This document shows, in pieces, positions 47,408 to 52,832 of a stretch of 64,000 nt of DNA. The number at the start of each line of letters is the position of its first letter. The stretch's first letter is position 1. The stretch is from a virus. Taxonomy: Duplodnaviria; Caudoviricetes. The stretch spans positions 128,001 through 192,000 of the IMG/VR virus record IMGVR_UViG_3300042013_000067. One strand, given 5' to 3'. Both the position numbers and the translations under genes were made by a program. The notes beneath the pieces are model-generated. The model saw nothing but the letters and a program-made list of their open reading frames with translations. It was not told where the DNA came from and did not search any database.

Positions 47408-47980
47408 ATGAAATGGTTTTCTGCTGTATTATTGACAGCACTCGCGTTAATGGCTAGTCCAGTATGGGCTGGCTGTGATCTGTCCCAGTCCGGCGTACCG
47501 ATTGCGGTGCGTGGGCAACTGGAGACGCAGTGTCTTCAGGCTGAAGCGAAGCTCAAAGAGCAAGCCCAAGTCACCGATGCACAGAAGCTTTCGGCTTATG
47601 CTGATGTCGCTACCCAACTCGCCAAGGCGGTGGGTATTGCAGCGAATGAGCTGGGCGTAGCTGTGAACGAGTTCATCAAGACCCCGGCGGGTATCCTGAC
47701 CATTGCGGTGATCTTGATTAAAGTGTTCGGTAAGCTGATGGCATTGATCTTCGTGGCTATCATTGTCTGGACTGCTGTGGCCCGTTTGCTGAAACACCTC
47801 TGGTACAAAGAGACTGGCGAGACGATGGAGATCAGTGGTTTCCTCGGTTTCGGCAAGAAAACGGTTCCAGTGCGCAAGCGTGTTACCTACAGCGAGGCTA
47901 CCGAAGGTCAGGTATTCATTACCGCATTATTGGTGCTCGCCGCCATCGGCTCCCTAATCCCAATTCCAATGTCCAGCTAA
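47408..47980 (+). CDS. Exported/membrane protein (signal peptide plus TM helices)
   Basis: GAGGAG RBS; signal peptide MKWFSAVLLTALALMASPVWA, Cys pair, three hydrophobic segments. Confidence 0.8.
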   Translation: MKWFSAVLLTALALMASPVWAGCDLSQSGVPIAVRGQLETQCLQAEAKLKEQAQVTDAQKLSAYADVATQLAKAVGIAANELGVAVNEFIKTPAGILTIAVILIKVFGKLMALIFVAIIVWTAVARLLKHLWYKETGETMEISGFLGFGKKTVPVRKRVTYSEATEGQVFITALLVLAAIGSLIPIPMSS

Positions 47981-48145
47981 AATATACTCAGCTGGTTATT
48001 ATATGTGAAGGTCCAGTGCGTGGTCCTCTATCTTTTGGTTGGAAGCGGAAAAACGTGCACGCACTGCGATCGACATAACCCTCCCCTCCCCCTTCTTGGG
48101 GAGGGTTTTATGCTGCCTTACAAACATCCCTTTGAGGAATACCCC

Positions 48146-49207: not shown

Positions 49208-49375
49208 ATGGTACCCTGCTTTAAACTATCGCCACGTCGCCTAGCGGCACTGGATGAGAAAGTAGATAACCGAGCTAAATCGCTGGCTATGGTTAAACGC
49301 TTCCAGGATGCACAGAAGCAATTAGAAAAGGTCTGTGCCGATAAAGGCATCCCTGTTCCAGTGATGGTCTGCTAA
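49208..49375 (+). CDS. 55-aa hypothetical protein
   Basis: AGGAGG RBS; MVPCFKLSPRRLAALDEKVDNRAKSLAMVKRFQDAQKQLEKVCADKGIPVPVMVC. Confidence 0.75.
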   Translation: MVPCFKLSPRRLAALDEKVDNRAKSLAMVKRFQDAQKQLEKVCADKGIPVPVMVC

Positions 49376-49383
49376 AATATACT
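49371..49383 (+). promoter_or_regulatory. Possible middle promoter GCTAAAATATACT (second copy at 47976-47988)
   Basis: Exact 13-mer occurs twice; resembles the recalled phiKZ middle motif AAnnnTAC. Confidence 0.45.
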
Positions 49384-49394
49384 GGACAGGTAAT

Positions 49395-49700
49395 GGTATA
49401 CGGGGATGGCGGTGATTCGCTATTCCTGTACATTAGCTCTGAGTGTTCCCCCAACCGGGCGCGTAGCCACGCTCATTAGCTTCTTAGCAACACGAAACCG
49501 TAGGGTCTAAACAGTTAGTCTGTTAACTGTGGACGATCTAGGAGGCGCAGCGCCAAACCCTAATAGGGTAGTAAGGGTAAGACAGATACTTATCCAAGCC
49601 GCAGCCCGACACCGAGCCGAAAGCGTACGTAGGCACTTGGCCACTGGGGTAATCAGTGGATACCGCTACTCTAGTTCCCCTGGGGTAGTGGTAAGCGAAA
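49395..49700 (+). ncRNA. Candidate ~300-nt structured ncRNA of unknown class
   Basis: At least five clean hairpins found by hand, no credible ORF, upstream AAAATATAC motif and its own downstream terminator. Confidence 0.6.
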
Positions 49701-49701
49701 A

Positions 49702-49736
49702 GCATAGCCCGCTCTTACGGGAGCGGGCTTTATGCC
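49702..49736 (+). terminator. Terminator closing ncRNA candidate A
   Basis: GCATA-GCCCGCTCT-TACG-GGAGCGGGC-TTTATGCC. Confidence 0.8.
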
Positions 49737-49803
49737 ATGTTTAAATAAAAGAAATACATTTTGTGTAATAGTATACGGTAGTGATTGCCGTTGTTTTGCA
49801 AAT

Positions 49804-49876
49804 TCCATGGTAGCTCAGTTGGTAGAGCAGCGCACTGTTAATGCGCGGGTCCGGTGTTCGAGTCACCGCCGTGGAG
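49804..49876 (+). tRNA. tRNA-Asn (GTT), CCA not encoded
   Basis: Acceptor TCCATGG/CCGTGGA, D arm GCTC-AGTTGGTA-GAGC, anticodon arm GCGCA-CTGTTAA-TGCGC, T arm CGGTG-TTCGAGT-CACCG. Confidence 0.96.
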
Positions 49877-49884
49877 CGATTTTC

Positions 49885-50159: not shown

Positions 50160-50266
50160 GGCTAGGAGCGGAGTTCGACTCTCCGCGGTGGTGGCCTTGG
50201 GTAGGCGCCGGTCCCGCTGGGATGGGCTTCGGAAACGACACAGAGGTTCGACCCCTCGCCTAGTCT
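50160..50266 (+). ncRNA. tRNA-like RNA with two TTCGA T-loops (pseudo-tRNA or Y-RNA-like)
   Basis: Closing stem GGCTAGG/CCTAGTC, T arms at 50168-50186 and 50243-50257, D-like arm GCC-TTGGGTA-GGC; no canonical anticodon arm. Confidence 0.65.
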
Positions 50267-50339
50267 TCTATTGGAGCATGCAATGCCAATCTACGAAGAG
50301 GTAAGAGTTCGATTGTGACCTTAACTGGAGCAATCGAAT

Positions 50340-50516
50340 ATGGCACGTTCAAGAAAAGAAGGCGGTACCCGGCGCGATGGTCGCGAATACTGGAGCCGTC
50401 GTCCTAACTGCAATGGTGCAGTGGGTAAGTTTGCCAAACGCATTATCCATGGTCAAGAGCGCTGTATCGCTAAAGACCTGACTCGTAGTGAACTGAAAGC
50501 TCATTTCTCGGAGTGA
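50340..50516 (+). CDS. 58-aa Arg/Lys-rich small protein
   Basis: GGAG RBS; MARSRKEGGTRRDGREYWSRRPNCNGAVGKFAKRIIHGQERCIAKDLTRSELKAHFSE. Confidence 0.8.
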   Translation: MARSRKEGGTRRDGREYWSRRPNCNGAVGKFAKRIIHGQERCIAKDLTRSELKAHFSE

Positions 50517-50579: not shown

Positions 50580-51839
50580 ATGCAACGCAAGACTTATGAA
50601 TTACTGGGTGGTGATACTCAAGCTGGATTCAAGCCAATTAAAGGCTGGACCATGGGTGTGCCAGTAGAGCCCGATGCCGTTAAACAGCTTAAGAATATAG
50701 CCTCGCTGCCCTTCATCCACTCGCATGTGGCGGTAATGCCTGACGTTCACGTCGGTAAAGGTGCGACCATAGGTACGGTCATCGCCACGCTGGGTGCAAT
50801 CATTCCAGCAGCGGTGGGTGTGGATATCGGTTGTGGCATGGCTGCACAACGTACCTCGCTAACCGCTAATGACCTGCCAGATAACCTGTCTGAGCTGCGG
50901 TCCTTCCTTGAGCAGTTGATCCCGCACGGGCGTACTGACAATGGTGGTGCGAACGATCGTGGTGCTTGGGGTTCTCAGGTAGCTCTGGATCACCAGATAG
51001 ACACAGTTCGTCTGGAAGCATCGCGTCTGCAGTTTGCACTGAATATGCTGGTGGCCAAGCATCCGAAGTTACAACGCGCTGCAGGCCGTGCATGGAATCA
51101 TTGCGGTACACTCGGCACGGGTAACCACTTCGTCGAGATCTGTCTGGATGAAGAAGACCGTGTATGGATCGTGCTGCACTCCGGTTCACGGGGCATCGGT
51201 AACGCCATTGGTACTTACTTCATCGATAAGGCCCAAGGTGAAATGCGGACACATCAGATCAACTTGCCTGATCGTGATCTGGCGTATTTGAAAGAAGGTT
51301 CGGTGTTGTATGCGGATTACCTCGATGCGATCAGCTGGGCACAGCGCTTTGCAGCATTGAACCGTACGGTGATGATGCATGCTGCTATTCAGGCACTGCA
51401 CATGTTCATGCAGCGGCCGATTGATTGTGATCTCGAAGCGGTCAACTGCCATCACAACTACGTGTCCCAAGAATACCACTTTGGTAACGATGTGCTGGTG
51501 ACGCGTAAGGGTGCGGTAAATGCACATGAAGGTTCGCTGGGTATTATCCCTGGTTCCATGGGGGCGAAGACCTTTATCGTCCGTGGTAAGGGTAATACCG
51601 AGTCCTTCTGTTCTTGCTCGCATGGTGCTGGTCGTGTGATGTCCCGTAAGGCGGCAGAGCGTACCTTCACCCTCGAAGACCACATTCGTGATACGGCTGG
51701 GATTGAATGCCGTAAAGATGAAGGTGTGCTCGATGAAACACCGAAAGCGTACAAGAACATCGATGACGTAATGTCCGCACAGGCAGAACTGGTCGATATC
51801 GTTCACACACTACGCCAAGTAGTTTGCGTTAAGGGTTAA
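50580..51839 (+). CDS. rtcB: RNA 3'-phosphate ligase RtcB
   Basis: AVMPDVH.G.G..IG, VGVDIGCG, LGTLGTGNHFVE, LHSGSRG.G, NCHHNY, GIIPGSMG, SCSHGAGR, DETPKAYK. Confidence 0.97.
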   Translation: MQRKTYELLGGDTQAGFKPIKGWTMGVPVEPDAVKQLKNIASLPFIHSHVAVMPDVHVGKGATIGTVIATLGAIIPAAVGVDIGCGMAAQRTSLTANDLPDNLSELRSFLEQLIPHGRTDNGGANDRGAWGSQVALDHQIDTVRLEASRLQFALNMLVAKHPKLQRAAGRAWNHCGTLGTGNHFVEICLDEEDRVWIVLHSGSRGIGNAIGTYFIDKAQGEMRTHQINLPDRDLAYLKEGSVLYADYLDAISWAQRFAALNRTVMMHAAIQALHMFMQRPIDCDLEAVNCHHNYVSQEYHFGNDVLVTRKGAVNAHEGSLGIIPGSMGAKTFIVRGKGNTESFCSCSHGAGRVMSRKAAERTFTLEDHIRDTAGIECRKDEGVLDETPKAYKNIDDVMSAQAELVDIVHTLRQVVCVKG

Positions 51840-52252: not shown

Positions 52253-52753
52253 ATGTCACGATTAGCTACGATCCATGCGTCGATGGACGCTACGATGCAA
52301 GCGTTTCTGGAAGTCAGTGAAATCCAGAAGCACCTTATCAACCACTACGGGAAAGCGAGCTGGTTGCGGGATTTCCGCACCATGGGTTTCTACGTACCCC
52401 GGCAGAACGGGGCTACGGCATGGATGCTAAAACAGATCCTCCAAGAACCTGACTCGTTGTTGTTCTCCAAGTACCGGGACCATCTCATACAGAACTTCGA
52501 TGGTGCTGGGGTATGTGACGTAATGAAGCCCAAGACGTCCATGTTGTCTGCTGAAGTACAGGCTCGGATGCATGAGCCGTTTGAGTTGTCCCAGTGGATC
52601 AAGCACCAGAACTACCGTATTAAACCACTTAAGCTACTCGTGATCGAACAGTCCTGCGTGGTGTTCAACAACATCCGTATCAACAAGTTCTACGATTGGT
52701 TGGAGCAATCACCCGGCGTAACCAGTGAAACATTAATACTGCGCATCAACTAG
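52253..52753 (+). CDS. Hypothetical protein with a degenerate P-loop-like motif
   Basis: AAGGA RBS; PRQNGAT and LLVIEQ segments. Confidence 0.7.
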   Translation: MSRLATIHASMDATMQAFLEVSEIQKHLINHYGKASWLRDFRTMGFYVPRQNGATAWMLKQILQEPDSLLFSKYRDHLIQNFDGAGVCDVMKPKTSMLSAEVQARMHEPFELSQWIKHQNYRIKPLKLLVIEQSCVVFNNIRINKFYDWLEQSPGVTSETLILRIN

Positions 52754-52832
52754 ATATGTGTTCTTAGCACAATCACCATTCACGTTTTAAACCAGTCAGC
52801 AAGTGCCCGCTACGTCGAATGAGTCGACTTTT

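What the first reader, a model, noticed from the sequence alone, without database searches (positions are those of the whole stretch)
49395..49736. Independent ~300-nt multi-hairpin RNA gene (candidate A) with no known family signature
Seen: a 13-bp hairpin at 49399-49430; ACAGTTA/TAACTGT at 49511-49530; GGTAAG/CTTATC at 49576-49594; CCACTG/CAGTGG at 49641-49659; a 14-bp GU-rich hairpin at 49661-49693; and longer-range pairs TGAGTG/CGCTCA and TCTTAG/CTAGGA. Many GU pairs favour an RNA-level structure. It is preceded by GCTAAAATATACT (exact second copy at 47976) and closed by a TTTATGCC-type terminator. There is no ORF with a credible RBS. I could not find tmRNA, RNase P P4, SRP or group I P7 signatures. 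Inference: a new phage ncRNA class associated with tRNA clusters.
Basis: partly seen in the sequence, partly recalled or inferred. Interest (0 to 1): 0.7.

Follow-up and report, generated by a model that had tools for sequence, protein, structure and literature searches.

The report
New folded RNA gene, Noxifer-like phages
This gene-free stretch of a giant, nucleus-forming Pseudomonas-type phage very probably encodes a folded non-coding RNA of about 335 bases, from a family in no catalogue, kept next to the transfer-RNA genes of four related phages; its job is unknown.

Summary
The stretch is most likely a real non-coding RNA gene, but no transcript has been seen.

- **Family size.** I found homologues in three other phages: Pseudomonas phage Noxifer, one IMG/VR genome of 268,693 bp, and one phage on three metagenome contigs. 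A near-identical copy occurs in a second rhizosphere metagenome.
- **Conservation.** The RNA core is 80-90% identical in aligned columns. Four of the five neighbouring proteins compared are only 33-62% identical between the window phage and Noxifer.
- **Base pairing.** Helices keep pairing through double changes: 14 of 35 pairs, against 5.4 in shuffles (0 of 500 shuffles reach it).
- **Invariant loops.** Two hairpin loops never change and are complementary to each other. Two pseudoknot helices are plausible.
- **Not coding.** No reading frame is conserved among the four homologues.
- **No known family.** Rfam 15, ARAGORN, and Ro and CsrA searches give nothing.
- **Transcription signals.** A two-part motif like the phiKZ middle promoter predicts a start at about 49400, the base of the first hairpin. 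The same motif precedes a neighbouring small RNA unit and both tRNA genes. A conserved hairpin ends the unit at about 49733.
- **Range.** Covariance models find one copy per genome, and none in 41 other phage records, including phiKZ and 201phi2-1.

The function is unknown. My best guess is a stable, trans-acting RNA that works through its shape. An overlapping window of this scan flagged the same stretch. The scan has reported similar orphan RNAs in other jumbo phages, but none from this family.

The parts
49374..49382 (+). Upstream promoter-like element AAAATATAC, part of the repeated GCTAAAATATACT
   Evidence: It resembles the phiKZ middle-promoter motif AAanTTACc, centred near -24 (PMC4666361). 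A TAC with an A-rich 5' side is kept in all four homologues, exactly 18 nt before the A of TATA (sequence reading). The same arrangement precedes the small unit at 47978-48005, tRNA-Asn (49750-49775) and tRNA-Lys (52733-52758). Function is inferred, not shown.
49390..49401 (+). Proximal element GTAATGGTATAC; predicted transcription start near A49400
   Evidence: GTAAT(G/A)GTATAC occurs only twice in the genome, here and before tRNA-Asn. It is kept in the metagenome-contig phage although the upstream gene there is different. TAT(A/G) sits where phiKZ promoters carry TATG, with +1 at the last base (PMC4666361). Inferred.
49399..49430 (+). H1: 5'-terminal hairpin, 13 bp including 3 G.U
   Evidence: All four homologues have a hairpin here, with unrelated sequences and 5 to 13 bp.
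49440..49475 (+). P1: 6-bp helix (49440-45 with 49470-75) closing a conserved 24-nt loop
   Evidence: Four different helix sequences all pair fully: TGAGTG/CGCTCA, CAGGTG/CGCCTG, CAAGTG/CGCTTG, TAGGTG/CGCCTA. The loop keeps TCC..AACC..G(G/A)CGC..GCCA.
49479..49546 (+). H3 (49479-87 with 49538-46) enclosing the conserved junction AACCGTAGGG and hairpin H5 (49511-49530, loop GTCTGT)
   Evidence: H3 has two compensatory pairs in L086 (TCTCGG/CCGGGA). H5 has an A-U to G-C change in L086. The H5 loop GUCUGU is invariant in all four.
49547..49565 (+). J3 hub: GCGCC (49550-54) and ACCCTA (49557-62), the proposed 3' strands of two pseudoknots
   Evidence: GGCGC (49458-62, in the P1 loop) with GCGCC becomes GACGC/GCGTC in Noxifer and L086. 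TAGGGT (49501-06) with ACCCTA becomes TTGGGT/ACCCAA in Noxifer. Only 4-6 bp each, from four sequences, so tentative.
49566..49607 (+). H6 (49566-72 with 49601-07) enclosing hairpin H7 (49575-95, loop ACAGATA)
   Evidence: H6 reads GGGT/GCCC, GGGC/GCCC, AGGA/TCCT and GGAC/GTCC. The T>C variant at 49569 in run X2 turns a G.U pair into G-C. The H7 stem covaries (U-A, C-G, G-C) while its loop is invariant. That loop is complementary over 6 nt to the H5 loop.
49612..49640 (+). H8 hairpin with the conserved loop GAAGCG.A.G.A
   Evidence: Present in all four, but two pairing registers are about equally supported. The fold is unresolved.
49641..49659 (+). H9 hairpin CCACTGG/TCAGTGG
   Evidence: Kept in three homologues. 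L086 has CCACTTGAG/CTTAGGTGG, with one compensatory pair. The loop is not conserved.
49661..49693 (+). H10: variable accessory hairpin, 14 bp, G.U-rich
   Evidence: One copy in the window, two related copies in Noxifer, a different hairpin in the metagenome-contig phage, and none in L086.
49698..49736 (+). Terminal hairpin with flanks: AAAGCATAGCCCGC...GCGGGCTTTATGCC
   Evidence: AAAGCATAGCCCGC is invariant in four phages and the stem has a U-A to C-G compensation. A hairpin followed by TTTATG is a frequent motif in this genome: GCTTTATG occurs 32 times against 17.7 expected. Its T tract is short; the simple scan scores the hairpin only on the - strand.

Best explanation
The region 49374-49736 is a self-contained gene for a stable non-coding RNA of about 335 nt.

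**How it is made (inferred).** A phage-type two-part promoter (AAAATATAC, then 15 nt, then TATA) would start transcription near A49400. A conserved hairpin with a short U tract would end it near 49733. The promoter type suggests synthesis by a phage RNA polymerase together with the phage tRNAs in the middle period of infection.

**How it folds.** Stable hairpins lie at or near both ends. The 5' domain (P1, H3, H5) is probably locked by two short pseudoknots onto one hub strand. The 3' domain (H6/H7, H8, H9) is tied to the 5' domain by a kissing contact between the only two invariant hairpin loops, GUCUGU and ACAGAU. The helices are shown by covariation; the pseudoknots and the kissing contact are inferred.

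**How it acts (guess).** It most likely acts in trans through its folded shape, as a binding partner or decoy for a protein or for part of the translation or tRNA machinery. It does not appear to act by coding or by long antisense pairing.

**My odds, step by step.** Real structured RNA gene: about 0.9. Own promoter: about 0.7. Trans-acting binder or decoy: about 0.4.
For: 1. **Homologues in three more phages, single copy where whole genomes were searched.** They are Noxifer (MF063068, about 197185-197567, unannotated), IMGVR_UViG_3300011223_000001, and a phage on contigs RCUJ/RCUK/RCUS. One copy was found in each of the three complete genomes searched whole, including the window phage's own; the fourth phage is known only from contigs.
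2. **Stronger conservation than four of five neighbouring proteins.** The core is 80-90% identical in aligned columns. Four neighbouring proteins are 33-62% identical between the window phage and Noxifer; only the small basic protein is as conserved, at 79%.
3. **Covariation.** 14 of 35 pairs have double changes against 5.4 in shuffles (0 of 500). 93.4% of cells are paired, against 35-41% when partners are slid. Explicit strands were checked.
4. **Strand.** G.U pairs kept in at least three of the four homologues at several positions would be A.C mismatches on the other strand. All neighbouring genes are on the + strand.
5. **Invariant loops on covarying stems.** The H5 and H7 loops never change and are complementary over 6 nt. 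The chance for that specific loop pair is about 0.5-1.7%.
6. **No conserved ORF.** Start codons and frames differ in all four. In the 63-nt block with only two differences between the window and Noxifer, both fall on second codon positions of the one frame open in both.
7. **Promoter-like motif.** It has identical 18-nt spacing in all four phages. It is kept in the metagenome-contig phage although the upstream gene differs. It also precedes the 47978 unit, tRNA-Asn and tRNA-Lys. Looser matches are enriched about 3-fold in non-coding DNA. It fits the published phiKZ middle motif (PMC4666361), and the tRNA-Leu of 201phi2-1 is read from a middle promoter (PMC11512511).
8. **Host polymerase unlikely.** No sigma-70-like promoter lies on the + strand.
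Against: - No transcript has been observed.
- There are only four distinct sequences, so covariation statistics are weak, and the alignment used was fitted to the structure.
- Minus-strand folding z-scores are as low as plus-strand ones in two homologues.
- The terminator has a short T tract. In Noxifer the annotated start codon of NOXIFER_207 lies 3 nt after the hairpin. Read-through may therefore occur, and the RNA could serve there as a 5' leader.
- H8 has two competing registers.
- The pseudoknots and the kissing contact rest on few or no informative changes.
- Nothing indicates what the RNA binds. The phage encodes no Ro or CsrA partner.
Confidence: 0.6

Rival explanations
1. It is a cis-acting leader. 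The structured RNA would be the 5' part of longer transcripts, and would control or stabilise what lies downstream (the tRNA or tRNA-like unit, or NOXIFER_207) through termination/read-through or processing.
For: In Noxifer the next annotated gene starts 3 nt after the hairpin, leaving no room for a promoter. The terminator T tract is short. Hairpin-TTTATG motifs are frequent in this genome. The sequence CTGGGGTA occurs twice (49644 and 49680), which allows alternative pairings.
Against: In the window and in L086 the downstream RNA unit carries its own copy of the two-part promoter motif. The downstream neighbour differs among the four phages (tRNA-Asn, a protein gene, a tRNA-like element), while the RNA stays the same. 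The one anti-terminator-type pairing I looked for, the terminator's 3' strand with the H6 3' strand, is not conserved: it is absent in L086 and the metagenome-contig phage (sequence reading).
Confidence: 0.15
2. It is an RNA-only assembly. Like ROOL and GOLLD, the RNA would multimerise into a higher-order particle that encloses or presents other molecules such as tRNAs.
For: It has the same habitat (a phage tRNA island) and the same lack of a protein partner as ROOL and GOLLD, which form nanocages (PMC12286853). The H8 loop contains palindromes (UACGUA/CGUACG in two members, GCGC/CAUG in two) that could pair between copies.
Against: It is much smaller (about 335 nt against about 580 or more than 800). 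It has no Rfam similarity. Short palindromes in a 13-nt loop are expected by chance, and they do not covary in register. The complementary H5/H7 loops are equally well explained by an intramolecular contact.
Confidence: 0.08
3. It is a ribozyme, for example self-cleaving or end-joining, possibly linked to the nearby RNA-repair ligase RtcB.
For: The fold appears compact and pseudoknotted, with invariant unpaired nucleotides, which is typical of catalytic RNAs. rtcB lies 0.8 kb downstream in the window.
Against: No match to any ribozyme family in Rfam. rtcB is not adjacent in the other three phages: it is absent from the 8-kb Noxifer stretch and from the L086 and metagenome-contig neighbourhoods. 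No conserved cleavage-site signature was identified.
Confidence: 0.05
4. It is a small protein gene (the 71-aa ORF at 49529-49744, or a shorter one), or a conserved DNA-level site such as a recombination or packaging signal.
For: An ORF exists in the window. One frame stays open across the most conserved block in the window and in Noxifer.
Against: Start codons, frames and stops differ in all four homologues, and indels are not multiples of three. There is no ribosome-binding site. Differences in the conserved block hit second codon positions. Compensatory and G.U-preserving changes indicate selection on RNA pairing on one strand.
Confidence: 0.03

Closest known systems
ROOL (RF03087) and GOLLD (RF01998), large ornate phage and prophage RNAs
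   Same: They are orphan, highly structured, pseudoknotted RNAs encoded by phages, often beside tRNA islands, with no known protein partner and no known function (PMC12286853, PMC5737381).
   Different: There is no sequence or structure similarity (no Rfam hit even at E up to 10). This RNA is about 335 nt, against about 580 and more than 800 nt. It is found only in Noxifer-like nucleus-forming phages. Multimerisation was not tested.
Stable RNAs of unknown function in phage tRNA gene clusters (T4 species 1 and 2 RNAs, T5 RNAs). Recalled from my own knowledge and named in earlier scan note e1-5336319; no paper checked here.
   Same: They are small stable non-tRNA RNAs encoded within or beside a lytic phage's tRNA cluster, and presumably co-expressed with the tRNAs.
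   Different: As I recall, the T4 RNAs are shorter and are processed out of the tRNA precursor. Here the unit has its own promoter-like and terminator-like signals. No homology was tested, because no reference sequence was at hand.
sRNAs mapped in phiKZ and 201phi2-1 by ONT-cappable-seq (PMC11512511; bioRxiv 10.1101/2023.10.13.562163)
   Same: These are non-coding transcripts of nucleus-forming Pseudomonas jumbo phages, bounded by a start site and a nearby terminator. One lies just upstream of a tRNA. The tRNA-Leu of 201phi2-1 is read from a middle promoter.
   Different: Those candidates were filtered to under 250 bp, and most are 5'-UTR-derived. My covariance models find no homologue in phiKZ or 201phi2-1.

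Membership tests
Any Rfam 15 family (4227 models) | Covariance-model score at or above the family's gathering score | tested here: not met
   Only the two tRNAs pass in the 64-kb window. At E up to 10, the four homologues share no family; the best hits are unrelated leader and terminator-like matches.
tmRNA | tRNA-like acceptor and T arm plus a tag reading frame, as detected by ARAGORN | tested here: not met
   ARAGORN finds only tRNA-Asn and tRNA-Lys in the window, and no tmRNA in the relatives' loci.
GOLLD / ROOL | Match to RF01998 or RF03087 | tested here: not met
   No hit at E up to 10 in any of the four homologues.
GOLLD / ROOL | Phage-encoded and located near a tRNA island | tested here: met
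   tRNA-Asn lies 70 nt downstream in the window. tRNA or tRNA-like elements flank the unit in Noxifer, L086 and the metagenome-contig phage. This is a habitat resemblance, not membership.
GOLLD / ROOL | Self-assembly into multimeric RNA-only particles | not testable with these tools
   Needs native gels or cryo-EM of the transcript.
Bacterial and phage Y RNA (YrlA) with Ro/Rsr | A Ro (TROVE) protein gene in the genome, and a Y-RNA stem with a tRNA-like module | tested here: not met
   No TROVE domain in the 283,622-bp genome. No Y-RNA-type match appears among the Rfam hits at E up to 10.
CsrA/RsmA-sponge sRNAs (RsmY/Z type) | Many GGA motifs in hairpin loops; a CsrA partner | tested here: not met
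   The phage has no CsrA gene. By reading the sequence, GGA occurs about as often as expected for this length, and only three sites are conserved between the window and Noxifer. A host CsrA partner cannot be excluded.
Independent phage transcription unit (phiKZ-type middle class) | AAanTTACc-like motif near -24 and TAT(G/A) at the start site | tested here: inconclusive
   The motif and its spacing are present and conserved in four phages, and they recur before three other RNA units. The consensus comes from phiKZ (PMC4666361), not from this phage, and no start site has been mapped.
Protein-coding gene | A reading frame with conserved start, frame and stop among homologues | tested here: not met
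   ORFs differ in position, frame and sequence in all four homologues.

The most novel reading that the evidence does not exclude
The RNA is the founding member of a new functional class of compact pseudoknotted RNAs made by nucleus-forming phages together with their tRNAs. It could be a catalytic RNA. It could be a shape decoy that neutralises a host RNA- or tRNA-directed defence or a translation factor. It could be a signal or adaptor for moving stable RNAs out of the phage nucleus.
Probability: 0.12. Interest if true: 0.8.

Novelty: new variant of a known kind. Interest (0 to 1): 0.52.

Why it matters
Nucleus-forming jumbo phages separate transcription from translation, so every stable RNA they make has to be produced, exported and protected in unusual ways. 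Very few of their non-coding RNAs are known.

This family is small, but it has features that are hard to explain without a function:
- it is better conserved than four of the five neighbouring proteins compared;
- the 5' end carries a hairpin and the 3' end region is a long extended hairpin;
- it has a covarying multi-helix fold and two invariant loops;
- it appears to share a dedicated promoter type with the phage tRNAs.

One carrier, Noxifer, is a cultured phage of the genetically tractable Pseudomonas fluorescens SBW25. Expression, structure, partners and deletion phenotype are therefore directly testable. The family also adds a case to the long-standing puzzle of why phages keep orphan structured RNAs next to their tRNA genes.

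Tried and rejected
- **Exact-pattern scans of IMG/VR** with three core motifs found only Noxifer.
- **First metagenome pattern** (3' block) found nothing. The block that is 97% identical between the window and Noxifer turned out not to be conserved family-wide.
- **Neighbour-protein routes.** A protein search with the 137-aa upstream neighbour found only itself. A locus search with it found nothing.
- **A loose two-loop pattern** gave more than 120 IMG/VR hits (80 loci listed). Model R1, run on those 80 loci, recovered only the already known member among them.
- **Covariance models R1, R2 and R3** found no further member. The sets searched were 80 RtcB-bearing IMG/VR loci, 36 other whole IMG/VR records, and phiKZ, 201phi2-1, Psa21, RAY and RP12. 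One 20-bit hit in RP12 lies inside a CDS, with most of the model deleted, and is false.
- **Pattern scan of 185,579 bacterial and archaeal genomes:** 0 hits.
- **Sequencing runs.** No RNA holder is listed, so expression could not be examined. The contigs laid on the window gave only two single-base variants.
- **Ro/Y-RNA and CsrA-sponge ideas** were rejected.
- **Strand from folding energy alone** is inconclusive.
- **GCTAAAATATACT as a general phage promoter word** is rejected: there are only two exact copies. The phage's early promoter is a different motif..TAAg..CTATATCAC.
- **H8 register** could not be settled.
- **A hairpin CCC/GGG (49558-60 with 49566-68)**, competing with H6 and pseudoknot 2, was considered. 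Its register is inconsistent between L086 and the metagenome-contig phage.
- **The small basic neighbour (58 aa, phrog_7399)** has no Pfam, PDB or atlas annotation, so it gives no clue.

Full report
**Setting**

The window is bases 128001-192000 of a complete virus record of 283,622 bp with direct terminal repeats. Its nearest named relative is Pseudomonas phage Noxifer (MF063068, 278 kb). Earlier notes of this scan call the genome a nucleus-forming, Noxifer-like jumbo phage. I did not re-test that beyond the similarity to Noxifer. The flagged stretch lies between a 55-aa ORF (49208-49375) and tRNA-Asn (49804-49877). Further downstream are more non-coding sequence, a 58-aa basic protein, rtcB (50580-51839) and tRNA-Lys.

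**Checking the observation**

TCTTAG/CTAGGA extends to a 9-bp helix.

- The + strand folds far better than dinucleotide shuffles: z = -4.4, against -1.4 for the - strand.
- Rfam 15 finds only the two tRNAs at gathering score, and nothing meaningful at E up to 10. ARAGORN finds no tmRNA.
- The repeated 13-mer GCTAAAATATACT has exactly two copies in the genome. A repeated 13-mer somewhere in 64 kb is expected by chance, so its meaning rests on context, discussed under "Ends of the unit".

**Relatives**

- blastn against 50,697 phage records finds only Noxifer. The match is 81% identical over the core, in an unannotated 400-nt gap after the homologue of the 55-aa ORF.
- Exact-motif scans and the first metagenome scan added nothing.
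- A search with the conserved 58-aa neighbour found a third Noxifer-like genome, IMGVR_UViG_3300011223_000001 (locus L086). It carries a much more diverged copy.
- A pattern built on the two invariant loops then found a fourth phage on three metagenome contigs (RCUJ, RCUK and RCUS; loci L207, L209 and L210), plus a second copy of the L086 sequence.
- A second rhizosphere metagenome holds a near-identical copy with two substitutions. One of them, 49569 T>C, turns a G.U pair of helix H6 into G-C.

That gives four distinct sequences. Three covariance models were built: R1 for the 3' domain, R2 from the window sequence with my structure, and R3 from the four-sequence 5' domain.

- They find one copy in each of the three complete genomes searched whole.
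- They find nothing in 80 RtcB-bearing IMG/VR loci or 36 other whole IMG/VR records.
- They find nothing in phiKZ, 201phi2-1, Psa21, RAY or RP12. One RP12 hit is a false positive inside a CDS.
- A pattern scan of bacterial and archaeal genomes found nothing.

**Conservation**

| Compared | Identity |
|---|---|
| RNA core, all pairs of the four, aligned columns | 80-90% (nt) |
| Neighbouring proteins, window vs Noxifer | 57, 54, 33, 39 and 62% (aa) |
| Small basic protein, window vs Noxifer | 79% (aa) |

The RNA is thus at least as constrained as the best-conserved neighbouring gene.

**Not coding**

- The 71-aa ORF of the window is split into two frames in Noxifer.
- ORFs of 15 aa or more in the four homologues differ in start, frame and sequence, and none has a ribosome-binding site.
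- Indels between homologues are not multiples of three.
- In the 63-nt block with only two differences between the window and Noxifer, both hit second codon positions of the shared open frame.

**Structure**

Aligning the four sequences to a model of the 5' domain gives strong support for its helices.

| Measure | Observed | Shuffled | Partners slid 1-3 columns |
|---|---|---|---|
| Cells paired | 93.4% | 82.6% | 35-41% |
| Pairs with changes on both sides (of 35) | 14 | 5.4 (0 of 500 reach 14) | 0-2 |

The alignment was fitted to the structure, and the L086 row is partly misplaced there. I therefore checked explicit strands by hand.

- **P1** has four different sequences, all fully paired.
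- **H3** has two compensatory pairs in L086.
- **H5, H6, H7, H9 and the terminator stem** each show compensatory or G.U-to-G-C changes.
- **H1**, the 5' hairpin, is present in all four with unrelated sequences.
- **H10** is an accessory element: none in L086, one copy in the window phage, a different hairpin in the metagenome-contig phage, and two copies in Noxifer.
- **H8** exists in all four, but its register is unresolved.

Three tertiary contacts are proposed.

1. GGCGC in the P1 loop pairs with GCGCC. The pair switches G-C to A-U in two members.
2. UAGGGU pairs with ACCCUA, with one A-U to U-A switch.
3. The H5 loop GUCUGU forms a 6-bp kissing contact with the H7 loop ACAGAU. These are the only invariant hairpin loops, and they sit on covarying stems. 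The chance of such complementarity for that particular loop pair is about 0.5-1.7%, although some pair among all loops would reach it in 35-40% of shuffles.

The three contacts are inferences.

Several positions keep a G.U pair in at least three of the four homologues. Together with gene orientation, this points to the + strand. Folding energies alone do not decide the strand.

**Ends of the unit**

The phage's early promoter is a different, strongly enriched motif..TAAg..CTATATCAC. It has 23 sites, including 45044 and 47319 in the window.

The RNA instead carries AAAATATAC, then 15 nt, then TATA.

- The same arrangement precedes three other units: the short unit at 47978-48005, tRNA-Asn (49750-49775) and tRNA-Lys (52733-52758). 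In each, an A-rich TAC word is followed 18-19 nt later by the last base of TAT(A/G).
- It precedes this RNA in all four phages with an identical 18-nt spacing.
- It is kept in the metagenome-contig phage although the upstream gene there is a different, 190-aa ORF.
- Looser matches are enriched about 3-fold in non-coding DNA.
- GTAAT(G/A)GTATAC occurs only before this RNA and before tRNA-Asn.

This matches the published phiKZ middle-promoter description: AAanTTACc centred near -24, sometimes with TATG at the start site (PMC4666361). In 201phi2-1 a tRNA gene is read from a middle promoter (PMC11512511).

The predicted start, A49400, is the base of hairpin H1. The 3' end is a 9-11-bp G+C-rich hairpin whose flanks (GCAUA and UAUGC) can extend the stem. 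The word AAAGCAUAGCCCGC is invariant in four phages. A hairpin followed by TTTATG is a common motif of this genome. No sigma-70-like promoter lies on the + strand.

One caveat applies. In Noxifer the annotated NOXIFER_207 start codon lies 3 nt after the hairpin, so read-through is possible there.

**Context**

In all four phages the RNA is co-oriented with its neighbours. It lies upstream of a tRNA or tRNA-like element and of the conserved 58-aa basic protein (phrog_7399, unknown function). rtcB is near it only in the window phage. The genome encodes no Ro (TROVE) or CsrA protein.

**Interpretation**

The best-supported reading is a self-contained gene for a stable, compactly folded RNA of about 335 nt, co-regulated with the phage's tRNAs and acting through its shape.

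| Status | Steps |
|---|---|
| Shown | Conservation, covarying helices, absence of a conserved ORF, absence from catalogues, restriction to one phage clade |
| Inferred | Promoter, start site, termination, tertiary contacts |
| Guessed | Trans-acting binder or decoy |

Rivals are a cis-acting leader, a ROOL/GOLLD-like self-assembling RNA, a ribozyme, and a small protein or DNA site. They are less well supported, for the reasons given with each.

**Comparison with what is known**

The nearest analogues are the orphan structured RNAs that phages keep beside tRNA genes: ROOL and GOLLD (PMC12286853, PMC5737381) and, from my own knowledge, the T4 and T5 stable RNAs. The resemblance is in habitat and kind, not in sequence or fold. 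Membership in every tested family failed.

I rate it a new family of a known kind of element. It is moderately interesting because Noxifer and its host are experimentally tractable.

Noticed in passing
window 47976-48112: A second small promoter-to-hairpin unit of about 105 nt from the predicted start at 48005. It has the same two-part promoter motif (AAAATATAC, 16 nt, TATG) and a hairpin followed by TTTTATGC. It is conserved in Noxifer (L001 2500-2630) with a fully compensated helix (CAGTGCGTG/CACGCACTG against CGCGCCTTG/CAAGGCG). It is probably another small RNA. A motif search did not find it in the L086 or metagenome-contig phage loci.
   Followed up: partly
window 47978-48005, 49374-49400, 49750-49775, 52733-52758: All four stable-RNA units in this part of the genome are preceded by the same arrangement: an A-rich word ending in TAC, 15-16 nt, then TAT(A/G). 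This looks like a dedicated promoter class (phiKZ middle-like) for the phage's RNA genes.
   Followed up: partly
window 50283-50318, with 50340-50516: A conserved 11-codon upstream ORF (MPIYEEVRVRL in the window and Noxifer; close variants in L086 and the metagenome-contig phage) lies just before the 58-aa basic protein (phrog_7399). A 7-bp hairpin (TCGATTG/CAATCGA) holds that gene's GGAG in its loop. This may be a leader-peptide or structure-based control of translation.
   Followed up: no
L086 5838-5929; L001 5643-5735; window 50160-50266: tRNA-like elements lie directly upstream of the 58-aa protein gene in each phage. The L086 copy scores 36 bits against the Rfam tRNA model, above the gathering score. 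ARAGORN does not call it. It has a long insertion in the anticodon-loop region.
   Followed up: partly
whole genome; window 45044 and 47319: The early-promoter consensus of this phage is ..TAAg(n)3-4CTATATCAC. TATATCA has 23 sites, mostly just upstream of genes.
   Followed up: partly
L001 4300-4330 (Noxifer MF063068, about 197534-197564): The annotated start codon of NOXIFER_207 lies 3 nt after the RNA's terminal hairpin, inside the conserved TTATGCC tail. Either the start is mis-annotated or the gene depends on read-through from the RNA's promoter.
   Followed up: no
whole genome: GCTTTATG, the end of a hairpin followed by TTTATG, is the most over-represented 8-mer: 32 occurrences against 17.7 expected. 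The ATG after the hairpin at 48084-48105 lies in frame with the next gene.
   Followed up: no
L086 5508-5545: The L086 homologue carries an insertion of about 30 nt that repeats the conserved junction motif: CCGTTGGG followed by ACCGTAGGG. This looks like a local duplication inside the RNA.
   Followed up: no
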